Origin: Eledone cirrhosa
Lineage: Eukaryota
Length of the DNA: 64,000 nucleotides
Direction: 5' to 3'
Assembly (NCBI GenBank): GCA_964016885.1
Contig: OZ024742.1
Coordinates: 150,102,001-150,166,000, forward strand
Positions 10,253 through 64,000 of the stretch are shown here, one piece after another. Each line of letters opens with the position of its first letter. Within the stretch, counting starts at the first letter, position 1. A program made the translations under genes and the position numbers. The notes below the pieces were generated by a model. The model was not told where the DNA came from, made no database searches, and saw only the letters and a list, made by a program, of their open reading frames with translations.

Positions 10253-10354
<102 letters not shown>

Positions 10355-10613
10355 CATTATGAAGAGAGAAGAAACATTTAGATATAATTAGTAATAAAAT
10401 GTATCATACCTAAACTGCTCCTCGCCTTCTTCACCACCTCTTCTACGGCCTCGATATGAATACCCCCTCCGCCTCCGTGGTATTTTCTTCGTGGTTATAA
10501 GAGGCTTAGCTCTGTTTCTCGACCGTTATATCGCGTGACTATCTCCCCCTCCGCCTTTTGGGATTCTTTCTCACGTCGTGTAGACGCGTTCTTGAGACTA
10601 GTAAAATGAGGTA

Positions 10614-10703
10614 TCCTCTTGATAAGTCGGCAGACCTCGCAAGGACTCTATATCTTTATGATATATTGTTTTTGTTTATGCCACGAAACTACGTAGTCGA
10701 GGA
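10614..10703 (+). ncRNA. Type I hammerhead with U3-A8 core variant
   Basis: tcctc-TTGATAA-gt(c)ggca...tgccac-GAAA-ctacgtag-TC-gagga. Confidence 0.7.
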
Positions 10704-11208
10704 ATCTAGGAGCAGTTTAGGTATGATACATTTTATTACTAATTATATCTAAATGTTTCTTCTCTCTTCATAATGTATTTTTAACTCTGATACTGGTTCA
10801 GTCTAGTTCAACTGAATTGGTCTGTCCCAGTCATTCATTGAGCAACATCGGTGAAGTTGGCACCCTTAACTCACAGTTGGGTGCGGATGCATTCATGTAT
10901 ATATGTGCGTGTCCGCATGTATCTGTGTGTTTCTAAATATATTGTTAATAACTCCCTCTGGTCGAGCAATCTTTGAAGTGTGGGGACAACTGGAAAGCTT
11001 CCATTACTCATACTTCTCGCCTTCTTCACCATCTCTTCTACGGCCTCGATATGAATACCCCCTCCGCCTCCGTGGTATTTTCTTCGTGGTTATAAGAGGC
11101 TTAGCTCTGTTTCTCGACCGTTATATCGCGTGACTATCTCCCCCTCCGCCTTTTGGGATTCTTTCTCACGTCGTGTAGACGCGTTCTTGAGACTAGTAAA
11201 ATGAGGTA

Positions 11209-11298
11209 TCCTCTTGATAAGTCGGCAGACCTCGCAAGGACTCTATATCTTTATGATATATTGTTTTTGTTTATGCCACGAAACTACGTAGTCGAGGA
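11209..11298 (+). ncRNA. Second copy of the U3-A8 hammerhead
   Basis: Same sequence as 10614-10703 at +595. Confidence 0.7.
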
Positions 11299-11560
11299 AT
11301 CTAGGAGCAGTTTAGGTATGATACATTTTATTACTAATTATATCTAAATGTTTCTTCTCTCTTCATAATGTATTTTTAACTCTGATACTGGTTCAGTCTA
11401 GTTCAACTGAATTGGTCTGTCCCAGTCATTCATTGAGCAACATCGGTGAAGTTGGCACCCTTAACTCACAGTTGGGTGCGGATGCATTCATGTATATATG
11501 TGCGTGTCCGCATGTATCTGTGTGTTTCTAAATATATTGTGTGTATATATATATATATAT

Positions 11561-13862
11561 ATTGGAATAAATGCTCTGAAATAGCGATATATATGTGAAT
11601 ATAGACATAGAATATTCGAAAATATTCTGTATGTTTATAATAAACATTTTGAAGACCTAATCGCTATAGAATAGAATACGTCACATATTACAATTAGATT
11701 CTCGATAAAAGCAAGGGAAGTAATCTACGCGTTTCATTCTTATTAGAAATCTTCAGGACTACATATCCATTGCTTTTATCGAGAATGACACAGCTAGAGA
11801 CTTATAGAATACTTAGCTGTGTACAGGAACTGGTTTGAAAGAGCGGTTGCCGGTCCGGCAGAAATTAGAAATTGGAATAAATGCTCTGAAATAGCGATAT
11901 ATATGTGAATATAGACATAGAATATTCGAAAATATTCTGTATGTTTATAATAAACATTTTGAAGACCTAATCGCTATAGAATAGAATACGTCACATATTA
12001 CAATTAGATTCTCGATAAAAGCAAGGGAAGTAATCTACGCGTTTCATTCTTATTAGAAATCTTCAGGACTACATATCCATTGCTTTTATCGAGAATGACA
12101 CAGCTAGAGACTTATAGAATACTTAGCTGTGTACAGGAACTGGTTTGAAAGAGCGGTTGCCGGTCCGGCAGAAATTAGAAATTGGAATAAATGCTCTGAA
12201 ATAGCGATATATATGTGAATATAGACATAGAATATTCGAAAATATTCTGTATGTTTATAATAAACATTTTGAAGACCTAATCGCTATAGAATAGAATACG
12301 TCACATATTACAATTAGATTCTCGATAAAAGCAAGGGAAGTAATCTACGCGTTTCATTCTTATTAGAAATCTTCAGGACTACATATCCATTGCTTTTATC
12401 GAGAATGACACAGCTAGAGACTTATAGAATACTTAGCTGTGTACAGGAACTGGTTTGAAAGAGCGGTTGCCGGTCCGGCAGAAATTAGAAATTGGAATAA
12501 ATGCTCTGAAATAGCGATATATATGTGAATATAGACATAGAATATTCGAAAATATTCTGTATGTTTATAATAAACATTTTGAAGACCTAATCGCTATAGA
12601 ATAGAATACGTCACATATTACAATTAGATTCTCGATAAAAGCAAGGGAAGTAATCTACGCGTTTCATTCTTATTAGAAATCTTCAGGACTACATATCCAT
12701 TGCTTTTATCGAGAATGACACAGCTAGAGACTTATAGAATACTTAGCTGTGTACAGGAACTGGTTTGAAAGAGCGGTTGCCGGTCCGGCAGAAATTAGAA
12801 ATTGGAATAAATGCTCTGAAATAGCGATATATATGTGAATATAGACATAGAATATTCGAAAATATTCTGTATGTTTATAATAAACATTTTGAAGACCTAA
12901 TCGCTATAGAATAGAATACGTCACATATTACAATTAGATTCTCGATAAAAGCAAGGGAAGTAATCTACGCGTTTCATTCTTATTAGAAATCTTCAGGACT
13001 ACATATCCATTGCTTTTATCGAGAATGACACAGCTAGAGACTTATAGAATACTTAGCTGTGTACAGGAACTGGTTTGAAAGAGCGGTTGCCGGTCCGGCA
13101 GAAATTAGAAATTGGAATAAATGCTCTGAAATAGCGATATATATGTGAATATAGACATAGAATATTCGAAAATATTCTGTATGTTTATAATAAACATTTT
13201 GAAGACCTAATCGCTATAGAATAGAATACGTCACATATTACAATTAGATTCTCGATAAAAGCAAGGGAAGTAATCTACGCGTTTCATTCTTATTAGAAAT
13301 CTTCAGGACTACATATCCATTGCTTTTATCGAGAATGACACAGCTAGAGACTTATAGAATACTTAGCTGTGTACAGGAACTGGTTTGAAAGAGCGGTTGC
13401 CGGTCCGGCAGAAATTAGAAATTGGAATAAATGCTCTGAAATAGCGATATATATGTGAATATAGACATAGAATATTCGAAAATATTCTGTATGTTTATAA
13501 TAAACATTTTGAAGACCTAATCGCTATAGAATAGAATACGTCACATATTACAATTAGATTCTCGATAAAAGCAAGGGAAGTAATCTACGCGTTTCATTCT
13601 TATTAGAAATCTTCAGGACTACATATCCATTGCTTTTATCGAGAATGACACAGCTAGAGACTTATAGAATACTTAGCTGTGTACAGGAACTGGTTTGAAA
13701 GAGCGGTTGCCGGTCCGGCAGAAATTAGAAATTGGAATAAATGCTCTGAAATAGCGATATATATGTGAATATAGACATAGAATATTCGAAAATATTCTGT
13801 ATGTTTATAATAAACATTTTGAAGACCTAATCGCTATAGAATAGAATACGTCACATATTACA
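11561..13862 (-). mobile_element. Left arm of 310-bp hammerhead tandem array (7.4 units, 7 HHRs on the minus strand)
   Basis: attggaataa recurs at 11561, 11871, 12181 ... 13731; reverse-complement HHR at 11720-11762 + 310n. Confidence 0.9.
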
Positions 13863-16800
13863 TAGTCCTGAAGATTTCTAATAAGAATGAAACGCGTAGA
13901 TTACTTCCCTTGCTTTTATCGAGAATCTAATTGTAATATGTGACGTATTCTATTCTATAGCGATTAGGTCTTCAAAATGTTTATTATAAACATACAGAAT
14001 ATTTTCGAATATTCTATGTCTATATTCACATATATATCGCTATTTCAGAGCATTTATTCCAATTTCTAATTTCTGCCGGACCGGCAACCGCTCTTTCAAA
14101 CCAGTTCCTGTACACAGCTAAGTATTCTATAAGTCTCTAGCTGTGTCATTCTCGATAAAAGCAATGGATATGTAGTCCTGAAGATTTCTAATAAGAATGA
14201 AACGCGTAGATTACTTCCCTTGCTTTTATCGAGAATCTAATTGTAATATGTGACGTATTCTATTCTATAGCGATTAGGTCTTCAAAATGTTTATTATAAA
14301 CATACAGAATATTTTCGAATATTCTATGTCTATATTCACATATATATCGCTATTTCAGAGCATTTATTCCAATTTCTAATTTCTGCCGGACCGGCAACCG
14401 CTCTTTCAAACCAGTTCCTGTACACAGCTAAGTATTCTATAAGTCTCTAGCTGTGTCATTCTCGATAAAAGCAATGGATATGTAGTCCTGAAGATTTCTA
14501 ATAAGAATGAAACGCGTAGATTACTTCCCTTGCTTTTATCGAGAATCTAATTGTAATATGTGACGTATTCTATTCTATAGCGATTAGGTCTTCAAAATGT
14601 TTATTATAAACATACAGAATATTTTCGAATATTCTATGTCTATATTCACATATATATCGCTATTTCAGAGCATTTATTCCAATTTCTAATTTCTGCCGGA
14701 CCGGCAACCGCTCTTTCAAACCAGTTCCTGTACACAGCTAAGTATTCTATAAGTCTCTAGCTGTGTCATTCTCGATAAAAGCAATGGATATGTAGTCCTG
14801 AAGATTTCTAATAAGAATGAAACGCGTAGATTACTTCCCTTGCTTTTATCGAGAATCTAATTGTAATATGTGACGTATTCTATTCTATAGCGATTAGGTC
14901 TTCAAAATGTTTATTATAAACATACAGAATATTTTCGAATATTCTATGTCTATATTCACATATATATCGCTATTTCAGAGCATTTATTCCAATTTCTAAT
15001 TTCTGCCGGACCGGCAACCGCTCTTTCAAACCAGTTCCTGTACACAGCTAAGTATTCTATAAGTCTCTAGCTGTGTCATTCTCGATAAAAGCAATGGATA
15101 TGTAGTCCTGAAGATTTCTAATAAGAATGAAACGCGTAGATTACTTCCCTTGCTTTTATCGAGAATCTAATTGTAATATGTGACGTATTCTATTCTATAG
15201 CGATTAGGTCTTCAAAATGTTTATTATAAACATACAGAATATTTTCGAATATTCTATGTCTATATTCACATATATATCGCTATTTCAGAGCATTTATTCC
15301 AATTTCTAATTTCTGCCGGACCGGCAACCGCTCTTTCAAACCAGTTCCTGTACACAGCTAAGTATTCTATAAGTCTCTAGCTGTGTCATTCTCGATAAAA
15401 GCAATGGATATGTAGTCCTGAAGATTTCTAATAAGAATGAAACGCGTAGATTACTTCCCTTGCTTTTATCGAGAATCTAATTGTAATATGTGACGTATTC
15501 TATTCTATAGCGATTAGGTCTTCAAAATGTTTATTATAAACATACAGAATATTTTCGAATATTCTATGTCTATATTCACATATATATCGCTATTTCAGAG
15601 CATTTATTCCAATTTCTAATTTCTGCCGGACCGGCAACCGCTCTTTCAAACCAGTTCCTGTACACAGCTAAGTATTCTATAAGTCTCTAGCTGTGTCATT
15701 CTCGATAAAAGCAATGGATATGTAGTCCTGAAGATTTCTAATAAGAATGAAACGCGTAGATTACTTCCCTTGCTTTTATCGAGAATCTAATTGTAATATG
15801 TGACGTATTCTATTCTATAGCGATTAGGTCTTCAAAATGTTTATTATAAACATACAGAATATTTTCGAATATTCTATGTCTATATTCACATATATATCGC
15901 TATTTCAGAGCATTTATTCCAATTTCTAATTTCTGCCGGACCGGCAACCGCTCTTTCAAACCAGTTCCTGTACACAGCTAAGTATTCTATAAGTCTCTAG
16001 CTGTGTCATTCTCGATAAAAGCAATGGATATGTAGTCCTGAAGATTTCTAATAAGAATGAAACGCGTAGATTACTTCCCTTGCTTTTATCGAGAATCTAA
16101 TTGTAATATGTGACGTATTCTATTCTATAGCGATTAGGTCTTCAAAATGTTTATTATAAACATACAGAATATTTTCGAATATTCTATGTCTATATTCACA
16201 TATATATCGCTATTTCAGAGCATTTATTCCAATTTCTAATTTCTGCCGGACCGGCAACCGCTCTTTCAAACCAGTTCCTGTACACAGCTAAGTATTCTAT
16301 AAGTCTCTAGCTGTGTCATTCTCGATAAAAGCAATGGATATGTAGTCCTGAAGATTTCTAATAAGAATGAAACGCGTAGATTACTTCCCTTGCTTTTATC
16401 GAGAATCTAATTGTAATATGTGACGTATTCTATTCTATAGCGATTAGGTCTTCAAAATGTTTATTATAAACATACAGAATATTTTCGAATATTCTATGTC
16501 TATATTCACATATATATCGCTATTTCAGAGCATTTATTCCAATTTCTAATTTCTGCCGGACCGGCAACCGCTCTTTCAAACCAGTTCCTGTACACAGCTA
16601 AGTATTCTATAAGTCTCTAGCTGTGTCATTCTCGATAAAAGCAATGGATATGTAGTCCTGAAGATTTCTAATAAGAATGAAACGCGTAGATTACTTCCCT
16701 TGCTTTTATCGAGAATCTAATTGTAATATGTGACGTATTCTATTCTATAGCGATTAGGTCTTCAAAATGTTTATTATAAACATACAGAATATTTTCGAAT

Positions 16801-17124
16801 ATTCTATGTCTATATTCACATATATATCGCTATTTCAGAGCATTTATTCCAATTTCTAATTTCTGCCGGACCGGCAACCGCTCTTTCAAACCAGTTCCTG
16901 TACACAGCTAAGTATTCTATAAGTCTCTAGCTGTGTCATTCTCGATAAAAGCAATGGATATGTAGTCCTGAAGATTTCTAATAAGAATGAAACGCGTAGA
17001 TTACTTCCCTTGCTTTTATCGAGAATCTAATTGTAATATGTGACGTATTCTATTCTATAGCGATTAGGTCTTCAAAATGTTTATTATAAACATACAGAAT
17101 ATTTTCGAATATTCTATGTCTATA

Positions 17125-17128
<4 letters not shown>
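13863..17128 (+). mobile_element. Right arm of 310-bp hammerhead tandem array (10.5 units, 11 HHRs); retrozyme-like
   Basis: CTGAAGA at 13868 + 310n up to 16968; reverse complement of the left-arm unit; ends in (TA)n. Confidence 0.9.
14148..14236 (+). ncRNA. Representative extended type I hammerhead of the array
   Basis: gtagtc-CTGAAGA-t ttct aata agaa t-GAAA-cgcg-TA-gattac; distal 17-bp helix attctcgataaaagcaa/ttgcttttatcgagaat; predicted cleavage after GUA at 14208. Confidence 0.8.
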
Positions 17129-17221
<93 letters not shown>

Positions 17222-21654: not shown

Positions 21655-21726
21655 TGGAGATACCGGGTCTCGAACCCGGGGCCTTTCGCTTGCGAAGCGA
21701 ACGCTCTACCACTGAGCTATATCCCC
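21655..21726 (-). tRNA. tRNA-Ala (anticodon CGC)
   Basis: GGGGATA/TATCTCC acceptor with G3:U70 Ala identity pair; D arm GCTC/GAGC; anticodon arm TTCGC-TTCGCAA-GCGAA; T arm CCGGG-TTCGAGA-CCCGG; discriminator A. Confidence 0.9.
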
Positions 21727-25914: not shown

Positions 25915-27698
25915 TTAATTGTAAGTTGTGATGTTGCTATTCCATTCATGTTTTCTATTTAATTTTGGTTGGAGTTCATTTATGTTTATTGCCTCTGTGA
26001 TTTGTCTAAACATTGCGTCTTTTCTGTGTGTAGATTCTATTTTTATTTCTATGTTCTCTAATTTACCCTTATGTTCTATTTTAGCATGTTGGTGGAGTAC
26101 AGATGATTCTTTACTATCTTGAAACTCTCGCCAGTGTTCATTTATCCGTTCTCCTATACTACAAGCTGTCTCACCTATGTACACTATATTCTTATCTCTA
26201 CATTGTCCTTCAGTACATCTTATGCTATATACTACATTTCTAGTTTTGCAGTTAATATGGGGGCTTAGTTTACAGATTATACATTTCTAATCTATACAGG
26301 GAGGTCTTTGAAAAGGGTATGTATTGCTAATAAGTGTTTTTATGGAGGTACCTGGTCTTTCTACTATCTTAATATTGAGTTTATGTTTATCTAGGGCCCT
26401 TCTAAATTTGTAATCTAATTCACCTCTAGGGATTGTATTGATGAACATTACACTCTGGTATTTATTGCTATCATACCATGAGTTTATTCTATTAACCTTA
26501 TTCCTAGTTCTTTCTATTCCATTCCAAAATTTGCTCCTATACAAGGGGCAGGTCCCATTTGTGTCATTATTTACCATTTTTTCCCATTTGGTTCTGGCTC
26601 CTTTATATACTCTGATTTTATCTCTCTGATTGTAACCAGAGAACCGCATACGGTGGATGAAGTGTTGTATGTGTCTCTCTAGTTCTTTGGGGTTGCACAT
26701 GCGGGACACGTTTCTCATCACCCGTACCAAATCCGCAATCAGTATGTTGATTTCGGTGTGATCCGAAACAGCTGAGTTTCGGTGGATCAGATATTTGGAA
26801 GTCATGGGTTTGGCATAATGGGAATGGAGGATTTGTTTTTTGTTATTAATGGTATCTAACCAGAGCTCTGTGTCTAGTACCGGTAATCGATAGTTGGGGT
26901 GTTTGCTTGGGTAGTCTATAGTAACTCTAATACTCTGGTGGATGGAGTTAGCTATTTGTTGGATGCTTTCCATGGTGTTTTTCTCTAATTCTTGATTGTT
27001 CTCTAGTGGGGGTGTTTTTACTACGATGTTTATATCATCAACGTAGCAGGAGTACATTATCAGGGTTAAGAAGTTGCTGTCTTCTAATTGTTCTCTAAGT
27101 TTAAGTTTAAGTCTATTATCCCGGCATACCATGAATAGGTTAGCTATGTCACCTGCAATGCTAACACCAATGGCTGCTCCCTCCTCTTGGGCATGTGTTT
27201 TTCCATTAAATTTGAACTTATGTTCGTTAAGGGTTAATTTTATACTGGCCCCCACCGCATGTGCAATCATTTTCTTTAGTTCATCGTGGTTTTCGGGGGT
27301 CAGTATGGCTCTGGTCCACCCGTTCCATCTATCTGTGTGGGTTTTCTTGGCCATTGAGGTAATGGTAGGTGGTCTGCCTCTTGCTGGTCTTGTAGGGCAC
27401 AGGTTGCTTTCCATCGTGCTACGTTCTAAATCAAACTTGTTAGTGCTCTCTAGTGTGTGTGTGTGTGGGGGGGGGGGGGTTCTTATAACTATATTGATAT
27501 CGTCTACATAACGAGAGTACATGATGAGGTCTATGGAGCTCTCATTAAGGAGATCTTTAAGGCTCCTTTCCCACCATACCATGAAAAGGTTGGCAACATC
27601 ACCAGCTATGCTGACGCCGATGGCTGCTCCCTCATTTTGGGTGTAGATCTTCTCGTTGAACTTAAATATGTGGCCCTTTAGGGTAGTTTTGATACCGG
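25915..27698 (-). mobile_element. Penelope-like retroelement RT + GIY-YIG endonuclease (5' truncated, disrupted)
   Basis: RT motifs QEEGAAIG, YVDD, LPVLD; then NVVYSIRC...YIGET...RINEH...EAININELQPKLN; stop at 26287. Confidence 0.9.
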
Positions 27699-27847
27699 TC
27701 AGTCAATGGCAACATTGAGGACCGAGTATATTAGATTACCGATATAAAAGACACAGAAGCGAGAAGCGAAAACCAACCAAACAGTGAGTGTGTTCTGTTA
27801 TTAATTCTGGTAATATTACACAAATATGACGCTCCCCAAGTATAACA

Positions 27848-29790: not shown

Positions 29791-31528
29791 ATCTTTCGTA
29801 AGACAATTATTCTTCTCCCGCTTGCCAACAAATGTGCAGACCATACTGGCAAATATAGTCGACACCAGTTCTCTGGACCAAATTGCAGACTCAGCGGATC
29901 GCATAATGGAATTTTATCGAGTGCCTACTTCGGCAGATCCACTCATTGCTTCTTCTACTCTTAAAGCACAGCCTGTTTCACCTCGTGAGGACTCTATACT
30001 GAGAGCCATTGACGCGTTAACTCGTCAAGTGGCTAAACTGTGTCGCGAAAGAACACCATCCAGATGGCGTTCACGGAGTCGGTCTCCTTCTCTTCATCGT
30101 CGTGCCAACCTCCCCACCAACAACTCGTCTTTATGTTGGTATCACGTGCGTTTTCGTGAAAAGGCGAATCATTGTATTCAGCCCTGCTCTTTCGGGACTT
30201 CGGAAAACTAAAATTGGAGAGTCTGGGCACGGCAAACCTCTCCCCCATTAATTCTCCTTATCGTGCCTTTTTCATCAAGGATCGAGTTTCAAACAAATCG
30301 TTTATGGTCAACACAGGATCTAGTTGCAGTATTTGGCCTCTTCGTTTCAGCTGTACCCAACCAAATTTTTCCGGTATTTCCTTGTATGCAGTAAACCAGT
30401 CTCCTATAAAAACTTATGGACAAATATCTTTATCATTGGACCTAGCTTTGCGTCGAGATTTCAAATGGATTTTCGTCGTAGCGGACCTACTCCATCCTAT
30501 TCTCGGTGCGGATTTCTTACACCACTATTCACTGTTAGTAGATGTCAGGAGACAGAAACTTGTGGATGGCACCACATCCTTATCCCGCGTGTTTCATAGC
30601 TGCCTCTGGAAACCAGTTTCATTCTCTTCTTGCCTCGTTTCCCGAGTTAACTGACATTTCATTTAAACCGAACCAAGTAATCCACTCGACTCGACATTTT
30701 ATTACAACAACTGCTTCGCCTGTTTTTTCTCGGCCACGTAGGCTGGCTCCAGACAGGCTAAAAAAAGCCAGGGATGAGTTCGATCACATGCTTCAGCTTG
30801 GTCTTATACGACGGTCCACCAGCCCATGGGCACCCCCGCTTCATTTGGCTCGTAAAGGTGAGGCGGATTTTAGACCTGTGTGTGATTATAGACGATTTAA
30901 CGCTATCACAACACCTGATTGTTATCCTCTACCAAATTTACAGGATTTTTCATCCGCTCTGCATGGATGCAAGATATTTTCTAAAATAGATCTAGTACGC
31001 GCTTACCACCAAATAGCCATGCATCCGGAAGACATACCAAAAACAGCTGTGATCACCCCTTTTCGTTCGTTTGAATTTCTATCCATGCCTTTTGGTTTGC
31101 GGAATGCTTCTAGTACGTTCCAGCGTTTTATCGATGAAGTCACACGTGGATTGGATTTCGTGTTTGCTTACGTTGATGATCTCCTAATAGCCAGTGATTC
31201 GGATGAACACCATCATCAACATCTATCTCAGTTATTTCAACGTCTCCAATCGTACCAAGTCAGAATCAACCCAGCTAAATGTGTGTTTGGTACAGATTCA
31301 CTGGAATTCCTTGGACACCTTATAGATTCAGAAGGCATTATTCGTCCTTTGCCAGCTAAAGTAGAGGCGATTCAGCAATTAGCACCACCAACATCCTTGA
31401 GACAATTACGCCATTTCTTGGGATTAATTAACTTTTATCGTCGCTTTATTCCTAACTGTGCGGACAAGTTGTTCCCCTTGACACAGTTTTTAAGGGCTCC
31501 AAAAAAGAAAGATGCTAAAATTTCACAA
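29791..31528 (+). pseudogene. Gypsy gag-pro-RT, internally deleted and 3' truncated
   Basis: Gag CWYH..F...A..C..PC; protease VNTGS (D to N) and ILGADFL; RT KIDLVRAYHQI, MPFGLRNA, YVDDLL; frameshifts; no RNase H or integrase. Confidence 0.9.
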
Positions 31529-31614
31529 TGGGGCTTTTGCTGCAGCTCTATTTTATAGTAACCCCGCTTTGCTTGTGTATAGCTTGCTTTATATGCGGTG
31601 CCTGTCGATATACT

Positions 31615-37739: not shown

Positions 37740-38300
37740 TCGAGATTGTAGGCAAACTGGCGGATATCGATGGACCTGCTCTGCATTTATTAGGCCTTCC
37801 TTGAACCGATAAAATTATTCTTTTTATTTTACCAAAGAGTGAAATTGTGAAAGAAGCTTCATACAACGTAGAAGAAATCATCTCCTATGTTAACGAAAAC
37901 GAGCCCAAACTACTAGATGATCAAAAAGTAGTATATAACATTATACTTGAGTCTATTATCCAACATAATGGTTGCCTATTTTTTTATCGATGCTCTGGGT
38001 GGAACTGGTAAAACCTTCTTGATAAACCTATTGTCTAAAATTCGGCAAGACTAAAAAAAAATAGCTTTAGCGGTTGTTTCATGTGGAATAGTCGCTACAC
38101 TTATATTTGGAGGACGGACAAATCTTTCTGCTTTCAAATTGGACTTGGGCCTCAGTTTGAATGAAATGTCTGTGTGTCATAGAAAGAAGGACTCGGGAGG
38201 TGCCCAAATATTGCAAAGATGTGTGGATCGTTTTGAGGATGAATGCATTGTGACGCACAAACACGCAATGGAGACCTTGATAACATCACTGAAAGATATA
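37740..38300 (+). pseudogene. Helitron Pif1-like helicase fragment
   Basis: DQKVVYNII...DALGGTGKTFLINLL (Walker A), AVVSCGIVATL, DEC; frameshifts and stops. Confidence 0.7.
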
Positions 38301-38329
38301 CGGAACAGCACTACAATCGTTTTAACAAG

Positions 38330-39470
38330 GTACTTCCCACAAACTTTATCAAAGGGGAATCTCGCCGATCAAGTTCGAGCTTGCCTAAAATCGTCAAATT
38401 TATAGCCAAATATCACCAATTCAATATAAGAACCAACATGCGGCACAACCTTATGGTGACAACATTTTCCCACAGTAAAGGGTGTAAATGCTGTGAGGTG
38501 CTTGTTTGTGATACGACCTTTAAAAGTTGCGTTAAGGGCAAGAGTTTCATAGTAGATGGCGGTTTGAGACTTGAATGTATGTCGCAATATGTTATATATG
38601 TTATTCAATGTGATAAGTGCGGTTTGCAATACTTGGGATATACGTCCCAGTCATTACATCGACGACTCAGTGGTCATAGACAGGTATTTTATTATGACAA
38701 CTCTTTATATATATACGAACACTTTAGGCCACATAGGGAGGGTTTCGGTTGTGGTAGGATCCAGATAATTGACCAGGTTCAGGCGAAAGAACCTATGACT
38801 AAACAGGAAATACTGGCTAGGGAGAATTACTGGATAAGTGTTATGCACTATGTGAACTCGCTTGGGTTGAATGATAGAATAGCAGGCTCTGGTATAATAT
38901 CTAAGAAAGAAGATAGAGTTAGTGGCGTTTATTTTTCTCAGCTTGTACTAAGAAGGAAACATAGCCACGATAGCAGGAAGTTTTAAAAAATTAGGAGAGA
39001 TGAAAGTGATACAGAAAATGGTGAAACTGGTCTAATAATAGAGGTCCGGGGATTTTTACCAGTGTTTGTGTGGCTCAGAGCATGTTCCAAGTGCAAGCTA
39101 AAGGATTTGATGAGGTGTAAAGAAAGGATATCCAAGGTTAGTTTTCTGATATATAGTTTCTACAATAGATTACTTCAGGATTAAAATAAGGGTATAAAGA
39201 TCAAAGTTGAATATTTCAGGATTCTAATCGTTAATAAATCGATGGATAGTTTGGGATTGAATTCGATTTGTAGCAATAGGATGCTTGAAAAGATAAAAAT
39301 TAGGAGGATTTGCGTCAGTTATTCATAGGACCGGGAGGATTGTATTTAACTACAATAAACGTTTACGAATATTAATGGCGAGGAATTCATGAAATCTTGC
39401 GGTAGTTTCTGCGATTGCGGAAGTTCTAGGTTATGCTACCACGAAGTAGAGCATGTAATTACTGGTGACG
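38330..39470 (+). pseudogene. Penelope-like GIY-YIG endonuclease region with degraded downstream coding sequence
   Basis: CKCC...VIYVIQCDKCGLQYLGYT...RLSGH...RENYWI...GLND; downstream FCDCGSS...EHVITGD at ~39405-39470. Confidence 0.8.
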
Positions 39471-44931: not shown

Positions 44932-45486
44932 GCCCACATCTTTGGTTATCCAGACCGCTGTGCTACCATTACACCAACACATCACCCATCTCCTTCCATT
45001 CAAATTAGAAGCTACATTCTTAGCGAGTATAAATGACAAGTAAGTATGTTTTGAAACAGTGAGCAGGTTTGAAATTAGAAAATAGAATAGCTTTCACCGT
45101 ATTTTTGACTAAAGAAATTTTAGTCTGAGAATGTAGCTTCTAATTTGAATGGAAGGAGATGGGTGATGTGTTGGTGTAATGGTAGCACAGTGGTCTGGAT
45201 AACCAAAGATGTGGGTTCGACTCCCATGTACGTCAATACTCATCTTTTTCTATTTATCTGAGGGTTCTAAACCCCATTATCAGACTAAAATTTCTTTAGT
45301 CAAAAATACGGTGAAAGCTATTCTATTTTCTAATTTCAAACCTGCTCACTGTTTCAAAACATACTTACTTGTCATTTATACTCGCTAAGAATGTAGCTTC
45401 TAATTTGAATGGAAGGAGATGGGTGATGTGTTGGTGTAATGGTAGTACAGTGGTCTAGATAACCAAAGATGTGGGTTCGACTCCCA

Positions 45487-45492
<6 letters not shown>
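44932..45492. repeat. 260-bp tandem unit with tRNA-like element plus inverted copy
   Basis: 45128-45230 is repeated at +260; 44932-45128 is the reverse complement of the unit. Confidence 0.85.
45165..45236 (+). pseudogene. tRNA-like sequence (anticodon GGA; AGA in the copy at +260)
   Basis: D arm gtgt/gcac, anticodon arm tggt-ctggata-acca, T arm gtggg-ttcgact-cccat, wobble-rich acceptor, downstream TTTTT. Confidence 0.6.
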
Positions 45493-45522
<30 letters not shown>

Positions 45523-50539: not shown

Positions 50540-51148
50540 GCAACACTCTCTCATTCTCTCTCACTCTATCCATCACTACCAAACTCTCCCCCCCCATATC
50601 AATACCTATCTCTCTCAATCCACTAACTCCATTCATTACCACTAAACTCTCGCCCTCTCTAGATAAACCATACAACACTCTCTCCCAATCCCTCCTCTAT
50701 ATCAATTAACACCAAACTCTCCCCCTCTTTATACCTACTACACGCAACTCTCTTCCAATACCCCTTTCTAAATCAATAAACTTTAATCTCTCCCTCTCTC
50801 TATATCTAATATACAACTCTCCTCTCTATATCTACCATACAACAATTTCTCCTAATCCCCCTCTCTCTATATCTAATATACAACTCTCCTCTCTATATCT
50901 ACCATACAACAATTTCTCCTAATCCCCCTCTCTATATCAATTAACGCCAAACTATCCCCCTCTGTATAGCTACTATACGGAACTTTCTTCAAACCCCCTC
51001 TCTATATCTACCATACAACTCTCTATCTCTCATTCCCTCTCACTCTATCTATCACTACCAAACTCTCCTCCTCTCTATATCTACCATACAACACTCCCTC
51101 CCAATCCCCCTCTCTATATCAATTAACCCCAAACCCTCCCCCTCTAAC
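50540..51148. repeat. Degenerate CT-rich minisatellite
   Basis: Recurring ctctctatatctaccatacaac / aatccccctctctatatc motifs, one near-exact internal duplication. Confidence 0.75.
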
Positions 51149-60044: not shown

Positions 60045-63000
60045 ATATATATTTCTATTTATTTGCCACCAGGGCATCAAAGATTGGGACAAATACAAAG
60101 GGGGGAGTTTACATACATTTAAAAAGACGTGTAAAAAACATATAACAAATTAAATTTAACAATCGATGTCCTCAATAGGGAGGGGCGTTGGCATGGGTCG
60201 CACACACCCCCGAAAAAATGTGCAACCCTCCTCTTCAGGAGCACAAAGAGCGGGTGCTTCCTTCCTCTTCTCATTCTTCTCCTCTCTCACCTACAGGCTG
60301 ATATAGAGAGAAGGCCCATTCACTCGGGCCATTCTCGCTACTTTCACCCATCTTTCATAAAACTTGCTGGAGTAGAGCACCTCTCTCTCCATTCTGATCC
60401 TTCTTCTAAAGTGGTACTTGAAAAAAAAGACCAGTTGTTGACCGGAGAGATAGGTGTCTGACCTCAGCCCTTTCAACTTGTCCACCATACAACTTCTTTC
60501 GCCATGGCTATCACACAGAGGAAAACCGCCTCTCCTTCGTTTTTGAAAGGGGGAGGCGGTTTGATTGTGACAATGTTCTCGGTGGTCAACCGGATTGGTC
60601 CAACCCGCGACAGTAGTCGTTCTACATAGCCCCACAGGTCAGCAACGCCCGGGCAGTGTACGAATGCGTGTGCGACGGTTTCCTCGTCACGCACGCATCT
60701 TGGACAGATCTTCTTCGAGGGGTCCCTACCCGGGCGCCCGTGTCTGTAGAGCTTGTCCCGAACGGATAGAGCTCCTCGGTAACATTGCCAAGCCAGGGAC
60801 TTTTGGAAGTTGTCCATCGGTCCCAGGCCAAACGTCCTACCGAACAGACTGGCCAGCTCGTCTTCCTCCATGCCCAGAGCCTCTCCGAGAGCGTCGTCGC
60901 ACTTACTGCGCACCAACCCTCTATAGAATGTTGAGGTTGAGTCTCCACTGATTGCCGGATCCGCTTGCCAGAGGGCCGTGAGCGCCTGGGCACATTCAAT
61001 GTGCCAGTCGCCCACTTTTCTCGGTCTTTGCTTGACCCAGGATTGCAGCTCGGTGAGTGAGACGAGTCTCGGAAAGGCTCGCCTCACAAACAGGGCCCAC
61101 ACCGGCTGACCGGTGAGGAATACCTGGAGGTGCCGTAGCCTTAATGCGTGTCTACGCATCGTCAACCACGGCATCCCCAGCCCTCTGTTCGAAGGGTGTT
61201 GACAGCAGATGGATCTTCTCACCAAAGGAGCCCGCTTCTTCCAAAGAAATCGGAAGAGCGCACGCTCCATTTTGGCGAATGTTTTCTCTGGGCAAGGCAC
61301 AACGGTCAAGCGGTAGTAGATGACGGACGCTATATAAGCGTTCGCCACCTCCGCTCGACCTTTCAGGGATAGTTTGCACTCGGCCCACTTCTGGGCGAGT
61401 GCAAACACCTTGCCCGTTACCTCGTCCCAGTTTTTCTCCACCTGGAGGTCCGGTCCGAACCAGACCCTGAGCAGCTTCACCGGTCCCTCCGTCCAGCGTC
61501 CGACGATGCCGTTGGAGGGCATCGTTTTGCCCCTCCACGTCCCGAGTTGCAAACCGACGGACTTGTCCCGGTTCAGCTTGCCTCTTGTGAACCTTTCATA
61601 TTCCTCCAGTAAGGTGTCGATCTGCCCGATTTCCGAGGCGCATGACACCATTACTGTCACGTCATCGGCGTAGGCCGACACCGCTTTCCGCAATCCCGGT
61701 TCCAAGGGGATGCCCTGCAACAGCTCCAGCTTCCGCAGTAGTGGCTCGAGAGCCAGCACATACAGGAGGGAGGAGAGAGGGCATCCCTGTCGAATGGATC
61801 GCGTGATTTGGAACGGCTCCGAGAGGTAGCCGTTCACCTTGACCCTCGAGCAGGTGTTGCTGCTGTGCATTGCAGCAATCCAGCCCCTGAAAACGGGTCC
61901 GAAGCCTGCCACCGCGAGCACCGCATCCAGGTACCGATGGTCAACCCTATCGAACGCTTTAGATTGATCCAAGTTGATCAGGGCTCCACCAAAGCCGGGT
62001 TCGTTCCCTACCCTCTCTACGATGTATCGCATGAGGTGGAGGTTGTCGTGTATGGACCTGGACGGGATTGCGCATGTCTGCGCTTCTCCCACCAGGTTCC
62101 CGACGACAAGCGCCAACCTCTTCGCTAACACCTTGGCCAAAATCTTTAACTCTGTGTTTAGCAGAGTTATGGGCCTGAAGTTATCTATGTCATCCCCCTT
62201 GTTCTCGTCCTTCCTCACCAGCGTGACTACGCCCTTGGTCACAGAACTGGGAATTCTCCCGTTCTGTTGCCAGTTGCAGTAGACCGCCTCGAGGAGACCG
62301 GAGAACAAGCCCGGCATCGCTACATAAAGTTCGTATGGTAGACCATCGAGACCCGGAGATTTGCGTTTGCCGCATTGGCTCAGCGCTTCCCCTATTTCAG
62401 CGGCTGAAATTGGCCTCTCGCAGGACTTCGCCTCCCCGTCCGAGAGCCGCGCCAGACCGTCGAGGTATGGACCGAAATCCATGGCCCCACCCGGCCCGCC
62501 GCCCCTCCCGAACAGTCGCGCAAAGCGCCGTTGAAAGGCCGCGCTCATCCGCTCAGGTTCAAGGATCACGCGTCCATCCTGGTCCTTCAAAGACCGAATC
62601 GTGGACTTGTTTCCACTTTTTGCCTCTGTCACTCGGGCCCAGCTAACAGCTTTGGCTCCCTCGTTACCCAGAGTACGTATTTTACTCCTGACAACGCAGC
62701 CCTCGTTCTTCGCATCAAAGAACTGGTCTAGGGCCGTTCTTGACGCCAGCACGCCGGCCACGTTTCCACTCCTAATCGCCTCTTCTACTCTATTTGTTAA
62801 TTCCCTTTCAGTTCTATTCCTATCTGATGCTAATTCCCGACTAAAACCTATCGATTCTATTCTAATTTCTCTCTTGAGAGAGCCCCACCACCTGTTGTTG
62901 ACAATTGCCCCCGTCAAACGCTGCTTAACTAGTGTGCTAATCCGCTTACTGTAAGCTTTGTTTGTCGGTAAAGACAAGTTTAGCTTCCAGTAACCGGGTC

Positions 63001-64000
63001 CCTGTCTATGAGTTCTATCAAGGTTGACCACTCCGGTCAACAACTTGTGATCCGAATAGTCAACCATGAACATTCGTGGACAGCTTAATATGTCCCTATC
63101 CTTATTTCTAACTAGGAACCTATCTAGGTACGACCTGGATGTTCCGCTGCGATTACTCCACGTCCACCGTGGCACAGTCGGAAAATCCAGTCGATATCTA
63201 TCGGCCAGATCAAATCGGCCGATTAATCGTTTGAGGCTGTTACACCCCCCTCTATCGGGACATGCCCCTACATAGTCCCAACGTGCATCCAGGATACCAT
63301 TCCAGTCCCCCACTAAAAGCAAGGAGCGAGACGTTCCCAGGAAATTCTCCAGGCGTCGGAAGAAGTCCGGTCGCGGTGTCCCCGATGGGGCATACGTTGC
63401 CACCAGCCTGAAAGCTCCACCTTCACCACTGCCGACGTCTAAAACCACCAGTCGACCCTCCGAGTCCAGGTGTACCTTCTGTGTGGCAAGACCCAGGTAT
63501 TTTCGCAGCAGAACGACAACCCCACCCCCACCCCTCGGCTGACAGAGAGATGCGTAGATCTCAAAGTCGTCGAAGATGGGGGCCAGTTGGCGCTCGCTGC
63601 TGATCCTGGACTCGCAAATAACCATTACATCCACTCTGTGCGACCTGAGGTCATTTAAGAGTTTGCCCTGTTTCCAGGACATCCCCAAGCCGCGTGCATT
63701 CACACATCCAACTCTTATATTGGCCATGTTGGTGCTGAAGAGGTAAAAAGGAAGAGGAAAGGAAATTACTTACCTCTTCATCTCCTGGGGCTGCACTATT
63801 TCCATGGGGGTGTTGGAAGGGTTGTTTGGTGGGGTGGTGGTTTGTGGTGGGGTGAGGACATCAGTGTGTGGTGGGATTAGGGTGTTTGGTGGGGTGTGGG
63901 TGTCTGGTGTGGGGGTGAGGAAACATCTCAATAGGACGCTGTTATGTGGTTTGGTGCAGTTGGTCCCCACATGCATTGGATGGTTCTTTTTCAAAGTTAC
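60045..64000 (-). mobile_element. Tx1-like LINE (ORF1 3' end, ORF2, 3' UTR), runs off the window
   Basis: GC-rich block; Pro/Thr-rich ORF end just upstream of ORF2; UTR ending ...ggcaaataaatagaaata. Confidence 0.85.
60473..63727 (-). CDS. Tx1/L1-clade LINE ORF2 (APE endonuclease, RT, C-terminal Cys/His motif)
   Basis: 1084 aa: NARGL, GDWN, YLDRFL, SDH; KSPGLDG, FRPITLLN, DQSKAFD, RQGCPLS, YADD; CPRC..ETVAHAFVHC; C-terminus appears to continue in another frame to 60291. Confidence 0.93.
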   Translation of the reverse strand: MANIRVGCVNARGLGMSWKQGKLLNDLRSHRVDVMVICESRISSERQLAPIFDDFEIYASLCQPRGGGGVVVLLRKYLGLATQKVHLDSEGRLVVLDVGSGEGGAFRLVATYAPSGTPRPDFFRRLENFLGTSRSLLLVGDWNGILDARWDYVGACPDRGGCNSLKRLIGRFDLADRYRLDFPTVPRWTWSNRSGTSRSYLDRFLVRNKDRDILSCPRMFMVDYSDHKLLTGVVNLDRTHRQGPGYWKLNLSLPTNKAYSKRISTLVKQRLTGAIVNNRWWGSLKREIRIESIGFSRELASDRNRTERELTNRVEEAIRSGNVAGVLASRTALDQFFDAKNEGCVVRSKIRTLGNEGAKAVSWARVTEAKSGNKSTIRSLKDQDGRVILEPERMSAAFQRRFARLFGRGGGPGGAMDFGPYLDGLARLSDGEAKSCERPISAAEIGEALSQCGKRKSPGLDGLPYELYVAMPGLFSGLLEAVYCNWQQNGRIPSSVTKGVVTLVRKDENKGDDIDNFRPITLLNTELKILAKVLAKRLALVVGNLVGEAQTCAIPSRSIHDNLHLMRYIVERVGNEPGFGGALINLDQSKAFDRVDHRYLDAVLAVAGFGPVFRGWIAAMHSSNTCSRVKVNGYLSEPFQITRSIRQGCPLSSLLYVLALEPLLRKLELLQGIPLEPGLRKAVSAYADDVTVMVSCASEIGQIDTLLEEYERFTRGKLNRDKSVGLQLGTWRGKTMPSNGIVGRWTEGPVKLLRVWFGPDLQVEKNWDEVTGKVFALAQKWAECKLSLKGRAEVANAYIASVIYYRLTVVPCPEKTFAKMERALFRFLWKKRAPLVRRSICCQHPSNRGLGMPWLTMRRHALRLRHLQVFLTGQPVWALFVRRAFPRLVSLTELQSWVKQRPRKVGDWHIECAQALTALWQADPAISGDSTSTFYRGLVRSKCDDALGEALGMEEDELASLFGRTFGLGPMDNFQKSLAWQCYRGALSVRDKLYRHGRPGRDPSKKICPRCVRDEETVAHAFVHCPGVADLWGYVERLLSRVGPIRLTTENIVTIKPPPPFKNEGEAVFLCVIAMAKEVVWWTS

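What the first reader, a model, noticed from the sequence alone, without database searches (positions are those of the whole stretch)
11561..17128. Retrozyme-like array: 18 hammerhead ribozymes in an invariant 310-bp repeat
Seen: what looks like a satellite has a type I hammerhead in every unit (gtagtc-CUGAAGA-stem II-GAAA-cgcg-UA-gattac). Stem III is only the palindrome ACGCGU, and stem I is extended by a perfect 17-bp helix. The rest of the unit is also hairpin-rich (acacagcta/tagctgtgt, tgccgg/ccggca, atagcgat/atcgctat, agaatatt/aatattct) and has no ORF. I saw no difference between units. Known: palindromic stem III HHRs cleave as dimers, and metazoan non-LTR retrozymes are tandem HHR repeats of a few hundred bp that yield circular RNAs, presumably mobilised by Penelope-like RTs. 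Inference: this is a very recent insertion copied from a 310-nt circular RNA by rolling-circle reverse transcription, possibly an undescribed cephalopod retrozyme family.
Basis: partly seen in the sequence, partly recalled or inferred. Interest (0 to 1): 0.95.

Follow-up and report, generated by a model that had tools for sequence, protein, structure and literature searches.

The report
Two-armed hammerhead retrozyme insertion
This is a fresh insertion of a small self-cutting, non-coding parasitic RNA, copied into the genome as two back-to-back tandem arrays whose ends show that a Penelope-type jumping-gene enzyme probably copied one RNA molecule from both sides of a DNA cut at once.

Summary
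Confirmed: 18 identical 310-bp copies, each with a type I hammerhead (palindromic stem III). It belongs to a young family with 17,836 ribozyme copies in this genome. 57 of 68 insertions examined are two-armed. One arm ends at unit position 130-139, the other at 163-172, in 54 of 54 outward pairs. Both arms share a haplotype in 32 of 38 loci; a variant found only here is fixed in both arms. Young intact Neptune/Nematis-type Penelope-like elements obey the same one-short, one-long rule (11 of 11). Best reading: a non-LTR retrozyme, a known kind, inserted by a Penelope-like enzyme priming both cut DNA ends on one RNA, probably a circle. Cleavage, circles and the partner enzyme are not shown; an uncut linear multimer remains a rival. 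Earlier scan notes hold no look-alike sequence, only a ribozyme-free analogue elsewhere.

The parts
11561..13862 (-). Left arm: 7.43 identical units, 7 hammerheads; reads unit position 34 (inner, 5') to 165 (outer, 3', site B). Unit numbering starts at the base after GUA (window 14209 = 1).
13863..17128 (+). Right arm: 10.54 identical units, 11 hammerhead cores (first one cut in stem I); reads unit position 275 (inner, 5') to 130-139 (outer, 3', site A).
13862..13863 (.). Head-to-head junction of the two arms, blunt, no shared bases
14209..14518 (+). One monomer, cleavage site to cleavage site: the predicted 310-nt RNA circle
   Evidence: circle itself inferred
14172..14214 (+). Type I hammerhead: stem I 14172-14177/14209-14214, CUGAAGA 14178-14184, stem II 14185-14198 (U.U at base), GAAA 14199-14202, palindromic stem III ACGCGU 14202-14207, predicted scissile bond 14208/14209
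   Evidence: sequence; covariation; dimer fold
14148..14236 (+). 17-bp helix extending stem I (14148-14164 with 14220-14236), closing the hammerhead domain
14338..14347 (+). Site A (unit 130-139, the unit's only (AT)4 run): short 3' end; used at this locus at 17128-17137
14371..14380 (+). Site B (unit 163-172, mostly 165 or 170): long 3' end; used at this locus at 11561. A-to-B is the equivalent of the Penelope 'tail'
11544..11560 (.). (TA)n target remnant, left
17128..17218 (.). (TA)n target remnant, right

Best explanation
A young, non-autonomous non-LTR retrozyme inserted by a Penelope-like (PLE) reverse transcriptase/GIY-YIG endonuclease through twin priming on one RNA. Steps: (1) arrays are transcribed; neighbouring hammerheads pair through the palindromic stem III, cut, and the 310-nt monomer is ligated to a circle (inferred from anatomy and from other retrozymes). 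(2) A PLE protein, probably a dimer, binds one RNA and cuts both strands of a (TA)n tract (target shown; enzyme inferred). (3) One DNA end primes at site A, the other at site B, 26-40 nt apart, one of each (end rule shown; priming inferred). (4) Each enzyme copies lap after lap across the cleavage junction, here 7.4 and 10.5 laps (shown that arms cross it and share a haplotype; circle inferred). (5) The two cDNA ends are joined, often through 1-5 shared bases, giving a head-to-head insertion. My odds per step: retrozyme 0.95, PLE-type insertion 0.9, both arms from one RNA molecule 0.8, circular template 0.65.
For: Family: 17,836 exact hammerhead-pattern copies, reversed control 0. Two-armed in 57 of 68 insertions. 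3' ends: 1,186 exact A|(TA)n and 1,112 exact B|(TA)n junctions genome-wide; 54 of 54 outward pairs on C1 0-222 Mb are A+B; 32 of 39 two-armed loci not chosen by their ends are A+B. 91 of 97 free 3' ends run into (TA)4 or more. Arms identical in 32 of 38 loci, against 3% across loci and at most 9 in 10,000 permutations; 28 haplotypes. A266 occurs 17 times in the genome, all here, in both arms. 85 of 100 arms are longer than 175 nt and so cross the cleavage site; 0 of 110 inner breakpoints lie within 5 nt of it. Ribozyme under selection: no fixed change in the 11 core bases among 39 fixed variants, N7 changed in 31 loci, 6 helix changes keep pairing only on the hammerhead strand; with an older subfamily 92% of cells pair, 13 of 34 pairs change on both sides, C3-G8 is swapped to U3-A8, stem III stays palindromic. 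A two-unit RNA folds unaided into the dimer stem III. Young intact Neptune/Nematis-type PLEs exist; one family sits in (TA)n, head-to-head, with one short and one long end in 11 of 11 two-armed loci. PAc cuts and extends both strands, starts at two internal sites and is modelled as a dimer (PMC11167929).
Against: No PLE terminus tested resembles the unit, unlike 24 of 57 Xenopus families with homology to annotated elements, nearly all PLEs; the partner is unnamed and its tails (110 and 83 nt) differ from 26-40 nt. A second 'sample-private' variant, C210A, proved to be a subfamily marker (324 copies), so privacy is shown for one variant only, and its parent could be absent from this assembly. 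L075 shows the same two-lap haplotype block at the outer end of both arms, which a linear multimer explains directly; L106 is mosaic in one arm only. For PAc, unprocessed RNA was the main substrate and start sites did not differ between strands. 8 of 9 Xenopus retrozyme dimers did not cleave in vitro. 11 of 68 insertions have one arm; 2 of 39 have like ends and 2 have an end at neither site. The antisense circle folds as well as the sense one (-74.3). Rfam finds no hammerhead.
Confidence: 0.6

Rival explanations
1. Same PLE twin priming at sites A and B, but on an uncleaved linear multimeric transcript of a parent array; no circle is copied.
For: L075: both arms start with the same two laps of one haplotype, then switch. 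PAc used unprocessed RNA in vitro. The monomer hammerhead is weak (1-bp stem III, U.U in stem II).
Against: Only that one locus shows same-lap sharing (6 cells), against 52 single-lap variants absent from the other arm where it covers the lap (many will be later mutations or errors). A new variant cannot become fixed in all 17 copies without a one-monomer bottleneck. 28 internally uniform haplotypes in 38 loci. The ribozyme is conserved.
Confidence: 0.25
2. One arm is made by ordinary target priming and the inverted arm by fold-back or self-priming, as proposed for PLE head-to-head structures.
For: Self-priming model in PMC3846280 (passages). It explains shared haplotypes. L032 has like ends and mirrored flanks. 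A few junctions overlap by 12-38 nt at internal palindromes.
Against: It gives no reason for the two outer ends to be A and B, never alike, in 54 of 54 pairs. Junction overlap is 0-5 nt in 39 of 55. Inner breakpoints of the two arms differ freely.
Confidence: 0.08
3. A satellite spread by DNA-level events (unequal exchange, circular DNA); the hammerhead is a relic.
For: Li et al. favour local tandem growth from a PLE terminus. One long array is a scattered mosaic for C210A (C1:217.80 Mb), so recombination occurs in long arrays.
Against: Fixed strand-specific 3' ends, (TA)n targets, variable inner ends and the match to autonomous PLE insertions; strand-specific structure conservation.
Confidence: 0.05
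4. The inversion or uniformity is an assembly or chimeric-read artefact.
For: Perfect identity; one mirrored locus (L032); a probable duplicate across a gap (L072).
Against: A fold-back artefact mirrors ends and flanks; here both differ. Same anatomy at dozens of loci with their own haplotypes and breakpoints. Contigs of run X1 show loose ends into (AT)n behind unit 139 and 170 (X1 may be the assembly's own sample).
Confidence: 0.02

Closest known systems
Metazoan non-LTR retrozymes (Cervera and de la Pena 2020, PMC7229834; passages and Discussion read)
   Same: Tandem 310-nt low-GC non-coding units with a type I hammerhead; one-pair stem III with palindromic tetraloop as in HHR_Amex1, U.U at the base of stem II as in HHR_Amex2; PLE partner and circular template proposed there.
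   Different: New sequence family. The passages read describe no head-to-head arrays, fixed paired ends or (TA)n target ('orientation', 'head-to', 'opposite' have 0 occurrences in the main text; supplements not read). Circles were shown there, not here.
Retrozymes as non-autonomous PLE derivatives (Li, Clavereau, Pollet 2026, bioRxiv 10.64898/2026.07.22.740005; parts 1-3 of 5 read)
   Same: Retrozyme and endonuclease-bearing PLEs co-occur.
   Different: Their link is co-occurrence and pLTR homology in 35 genomes without a mollusc; here no pLTR homology was found and the link is insertion anatomy.
Canonical EN+ Penelope-like elements, Neptune/Nematis type, and Naiad (Craig et al. 2021, 10.1101/2021.04.23.441226, passages; Arkhipova et al. 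2013, PMC3846280, passages)
   Same: Inverted 5'-truncated copy, 30-40 bp tail on one end only, microsatellite targets that hide target duplications.
   Different: No ORF; units are 310 nt and run to 27 laps; the one-short, one-long rule is here counted and tied to a shared template.
PAc Poseidon element in vitro (Frangieh et al. 2024, PMC11167929; parts 1-2 of 4 read)
   Same: Both strands cut and extended, two internal start sites that delimit the tail, AT-rich target, predicted dimer.
   Different: They saw no strand difference in start site and no homology to the target; here the two ends always split A/B, and site A carries 8 nt matching (TA)n.
LINE-1 twin priming (recalled, not read here)
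   Same: Both 3' ends face outward, 5' ends joined by short shared bases.
   Different: Second site is fixed near the first, not scattered upstream; arms are multi-lap; no poly(A).

Membership tests
non-LTR retrozyme | Tandem units of about 170-400 nt, each with a type I hammerhead | tested here: met
   310-nt units, 18 cores, 17 complete; covariation
non-LTR retrozyme | Low GC, non-coding, no LTRs | tested here: met
   GC 33%; longest stop-to-stop 59 aa; ends join (TA)n directly
non-LTR retrozyme | Dispersed multicopy family | tested here: met
   17,836 pattern copies; 1,186 and 1,112 exact ends
non-LTR retrozyme | Self-cleavage, as monomer or dimer | not testable with these tools
   Only the dimer fold was computed
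non-LTR retrozyme | Expressed as linear and circular monomer RNA | not testable with these tools
   Needs northern or RNase R RT-PCR; contigs cannot tell a circle from a tandem array
non-LTR retrozyme | Target-site duplication longer than 4 bp, when present | tested here: inconclusive
   Both flanks are (TA)n
non-LTR retrozyme | Homology to a PLE pLTR (found for part of the Xenopus families) | tested here: inconclusive
   None for termini of four PLE families; other families not searched
type I hammerhead | Core CUGANGA, GAAA, UH with stems I-III, ends in stem I | tested here: met
   U3-A8 swap in the older subfamily, a known variant (PMC4209133 passage)
Rfam hammerhead families | Score at gathering threshold | tested here: not met
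PLE-type insertion | Head-to-head 5'-truncated copies | tested here: met
   57 of 68
PLE-type insertion | Tail of about 30-40 bp on one end only | tested here: met
   54 of 54; 32 of 39
PLE-type insertion | Microsatellite target | tested here: met
   91 of 97 (for A ends the test window includes 6 nt of the element's own AT run)
autonomous PLE | Encodes RT and GIY-YIG endonuclease | tested here: not met
   No ORF; works like a PLE passenger, is not a PLE

The most novel reading that the evidence does not exclude
Twin rolling-circle reverse transcription: one PLE dimer holds one ribozyme RNA circle, primes both ends of a cut (TA)n at two fixed sites, one per subunit, and both subunits lap the same circle before their cDNAs are joined. 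The same two-site split would explain the one-sided tail and inverted pLTR of Penelope-like elements in general, and the end rule alone would reveal PLE passengers that share no sequence with a PLE.
Probability: 0.5. Interest if true: 0.82.

Novelty: new variant of a known kind. Interest (0 to 1): 0.68.

Why it matters
How animal retrozymes enter the genome was proposed (circle plus PLE enzyme) but, in the papers read, argued from co-occurrence and terminal homology. How PLEs make their inverted copies and one-sided tail is called undefined in Craig et al. 2021. This family supplies more than a thousand young insertions that record both steps with a strict rule, two named start sites on a 310-nt RNA, and intact candidate enzymes in the same genome. 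That makes the mechanism directly testable in the existing PAc-type assay, and shows a route to multi-copy, two-sided gene insertion from a small circular RNA.

Tried and rejected
Rfam: no hammerhead match. Sequencing runs: no RNA holder listed; this says nothing on expression. Contigs of 4 of the 6 listed runs were laid on one unit: all four hold it; X4-X6 (kind unknown) give a joint 'goes back 310' and X5, X6 one 340-nt self-overlapping contig with the common haplotype, which cannot separate circle from tandem DNA. L039, an array joined directly to a PLE RT fragment, first looked like a co-mobilised chimera and like a Naiad; the family has a C-terminal zinc-finger linker and GIY-YIG and the fragment is broken and about 91% identical to relatives, far older than the array, so it was dropped as proof. 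Partner search by terminal homology: scores within shuffles or only AT-rich noise. 'Sample-private' variants as proof of single templates: true for A266, false for C210A. End classes in the older subfamily: one search had a script error and is not used; one search was too strict to count. Pfam and PDB gave nothing for the Neptune-type proteins; their type rests on motifs seen in the translation and the domain order in Craig et al.; Neptune and Nematis were not told apart. Earlier scan notes by sequence: none. Literature searches for a prior description of this family or of two-armed retrozymes listed none; subscription papers, Repbase and supplements were not seen and may hold it. PMC10886601 passages were irrelevant.
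Full report
What is there. The stretch 11561-17128 holds a 310-bp unit with no difference between copies, but in two arms: 11561-13862 on the minus strand (7.43 units) and 13863-17128 on the plus strand (10.54 units), joined bluntly 5' to 5'. Numbering the unit from the base after GUA (14209 = 1), the left arm's outer end is at 165 and the right arm's at 130-139; both run into (TA)n. Each unit has a type I hammerhead: stem I gtagtc/gattac, CUGAAGA, a four-pair stem II on a U.U, GAAA, the palindrome ACGCGU, and a 17-bp helix beyond an internal loop. There are 18 cores, 17 complete. No ORF. Rfam does not score it.

Is the ribozyme real? The unit folds better than 100 of 100 shuffles as a circle, though the antisense strand folds as well. 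Variation picks the strand. Among 39 variants fixed in arms of two units or more, none hits the 11 core bases, the free N7 position is changed in 31 loci, six helix changes give G.U on the hammerhead strand and mismatches on the other, and two keep or restore pairs on both; the common C at 266 opens the last pair of the long helix. An older subfamily (about 2,455 candidates, 40 scored) was aligned over the hammerhead domain, 15 copies plus the window. For 34 pairs that I named, 92% of 541 cells pair and 13 pairs change on both sides, above all 500 shuffles and all slid controls; related sequences can beat the shuffles, and the structure was drawn from these sequences. All 15 older copies have U3-A8 where the window has C3-G8, a swap reported in Schistosoma PLE hammerheads (PMC4209133, passage). 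Stem III stays palindromic with other letters (ACGGCCGU, ACAGCUGU). A two-unit RNA folds unaided with the six-pair stem III between hammerheads. Cleavage itself is not shown.

The family. A degenerate 33-nt hammerhead pattern matches 17,836 times in the 3.0-Gb genome, the reversed control 0 times: about 5.5 Mb of units. I fetched 67 loci: 36 from a DNA search, 11 in coordinate order from an exact hammerhead scan, 20 in coordinate order from a scan for site-B ends. Two diverged loci (L065, L066) and pieces under 88% identity were left out, leaving 68 insertions with the window. 57 are head-to-head, 11 single-armed. 91 of 97 3' ends not selected by the B pattern run into (TA)4 or more.

The end rule. 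Outer ends fall at site A (130-139) or site B (163-172). Of 39 two-armed insertions not chosen by their ends, 32 are A+B, 1 A+A (L032, mirrored flanks), 1 B+B (L059, short arm), 2 have an end elsewhere, and 3 reach the edge of the fetched stretch; of 18 chosen by a B end, 14 have A opposite and 4 reach the edge. Genome-wide there are 1,186 exact A|(TA)n and 1,112 exact B|(TA)n junctions. On C1 up to 222.5 Mb, 100 A and 81 B ends give 54 outward-facing pairs within 20 kb, all A+B; 46 A and 27 B ends had no exact partner. Site A is the unit's best match to (TA)n (8 nt); site B has only 2, and other 4-5 nt matches are not used as 3' ends, so the sites are chosen by more than homology (inference).

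One template. In 38 loci with both arms of 330 bp or more (L053, a noisy contig end, left out) the arms have the same haplotype in 32, against 3.2% across loci and a permutation mean of 2.0, maximum 9; there are 28 haplotypes. The window's A266 occurs 17 times in the genome, all in this locus, in both arms. Against this: C210A, single in my sample, is a 324-copy subfamily marker; L075 has the same two outer laps of a second haplotype in both arms, and L106 is mosaic in one arm. L075 still says that both enzymes read the same thing in step, be it a linear multimer or a joint switch of circles. Otherwise 52 single-lap variants are absent from the other arm where it covers that lap. 85 of 100 arms cross the cleavage site; none of 110 inner breakpoints is within 5 nt of it; they cluster mildly near the long helix; junction overlaps are 0-5 nt in 39 of 55. 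A cleaved linear monomer is therefore not the template.

The enzyme. At least three PLE families have 40 of 40 scored copies at 99-100% identity. [quoted passage not shown] Of 14 loci fetched, 11 showed both arms to their ends; all 11 lie in (TA)n with one short and one long end 110 nt apart. A second family shows ends about 83 nt apart, one of each in L161 and L162. None of the termini tested resembles the 310-nt unit, so the partner is not identified. L039, an array fused to an older PLE fragment, was rejected as proof.

Mechanism. Shown: anatomy, target, end rule, shared haplotype, crossing of the cleavage site, co-existing PLEs with the same rule. From the literature: retrozymes yield circles and weak stem III hammerheads cut as dimers (PMC7229834); PAc cuts and extends both strands from two internal sites that delimit the tail and is modelled as a dimer (PMC11167929). 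Inferred: a PLE dimer on one RNA primes each cut end at its own site, both subunits copy several laps, and the cDNA ends are joined. The main rival is an uncut linear multimer (0.25).

Novelty. The element is a non-LTR retrozyme, a known kind; PLE dependence has been proposed. Head-to-head copies and a one-sided tail are known for PLEs. I found no description of this family, of two-armed retrozyme insertions, or of a strict split of the two start sites between the two ends (searches; subscription papers, Repbase and supplements unseen). Four runs from four studies hold the unit (the first may be the assembly's own sample). The host was not identified. An earlier scan note describes a ribozyme-free tandem unit with PLE-type ends in another genome (e1-7881736, untested). 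Verdict: new variant of a known kind, interest 0.68.

Noticed in passing
window 10352-11545: A second, unrelated hammerhead-bearing tandem element directly left of the array: 595-nt period (526 of 528 bases identical), U3-A8 core with a 59-nt stem II and a 10-nt palindromic stem III (GAAA at 10685 and 11280), inverted 71-bp head, in (TA)n, with two 3' ends about 165 nt apart, one of each here and in L047; further copies in L048, L094, L163. Probably another PLE passenger or solo pLTR tandem. No Rfam hammerhead match.
   Followed up: partly
L149 (G000:C3:316595300-316604800), L140-L153, L160-L165: Three very young Neptune/Nematis-type PLE families, one with several intact 781-codon frames; Pfam and PDB do not detect the protein. 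A hammerhead-like motif with palindromic stem III lies in the L162-family terminus.
   Followed up: partly
L110-L129, L065, L066, L076:2021-2389: Older relatives of the 310-nt unit (about 65-80% identity) with a U3-A8 core, shorter arrays, often inverted and in (TA)n: the lineage has had earlier bursts.
   Followed up: partly
L075:1700-8101 and L106:476-4494: Mosaic arrays: L075 has two outer laps of one haplotype in both arms; L106 switches haplotype within one arm.
   Followed up: partly
L032:3900-6250: A+A insertion with several hundred bases of mirrored flank on both sides, followed by a young PLE: a fold-back rearrangement or assembly artefact.
   Followed up: no
G000:C1:217796811-217808929: An array of at least 12 kb in which the C210A variant recurs at irregular multiples of 310 bp, suggesting recombination in long arrays.
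   Followed up: no
L039:5101-6108: Single-armed array fused at its 5' end to a broken, older PLE RT fragment with no (TA)n between.
   Followed up: yes
window 26287-27702 (-), 38243-38986 (+), 30542-31558 (+), 60473-63769 (-): Other mobile-element frames: a PLE-like RT piece, a GIY-YIG piece, an LTR-retrotransposon-like RT piece, and a 1,098-codon LINE frame with endonuclease, RT and zinc finger.
   Followed up: partly
window 21655-21726 (-), 45165-45235, 45425-45495: One well-scoring tRNA (anticodon CGC loop) and two weaker tRNA-like matches.
   Followed up: no
window 50792-51145: C/T-rich tandem repeat with 67- and 182-bp periods.
   Followed up: no
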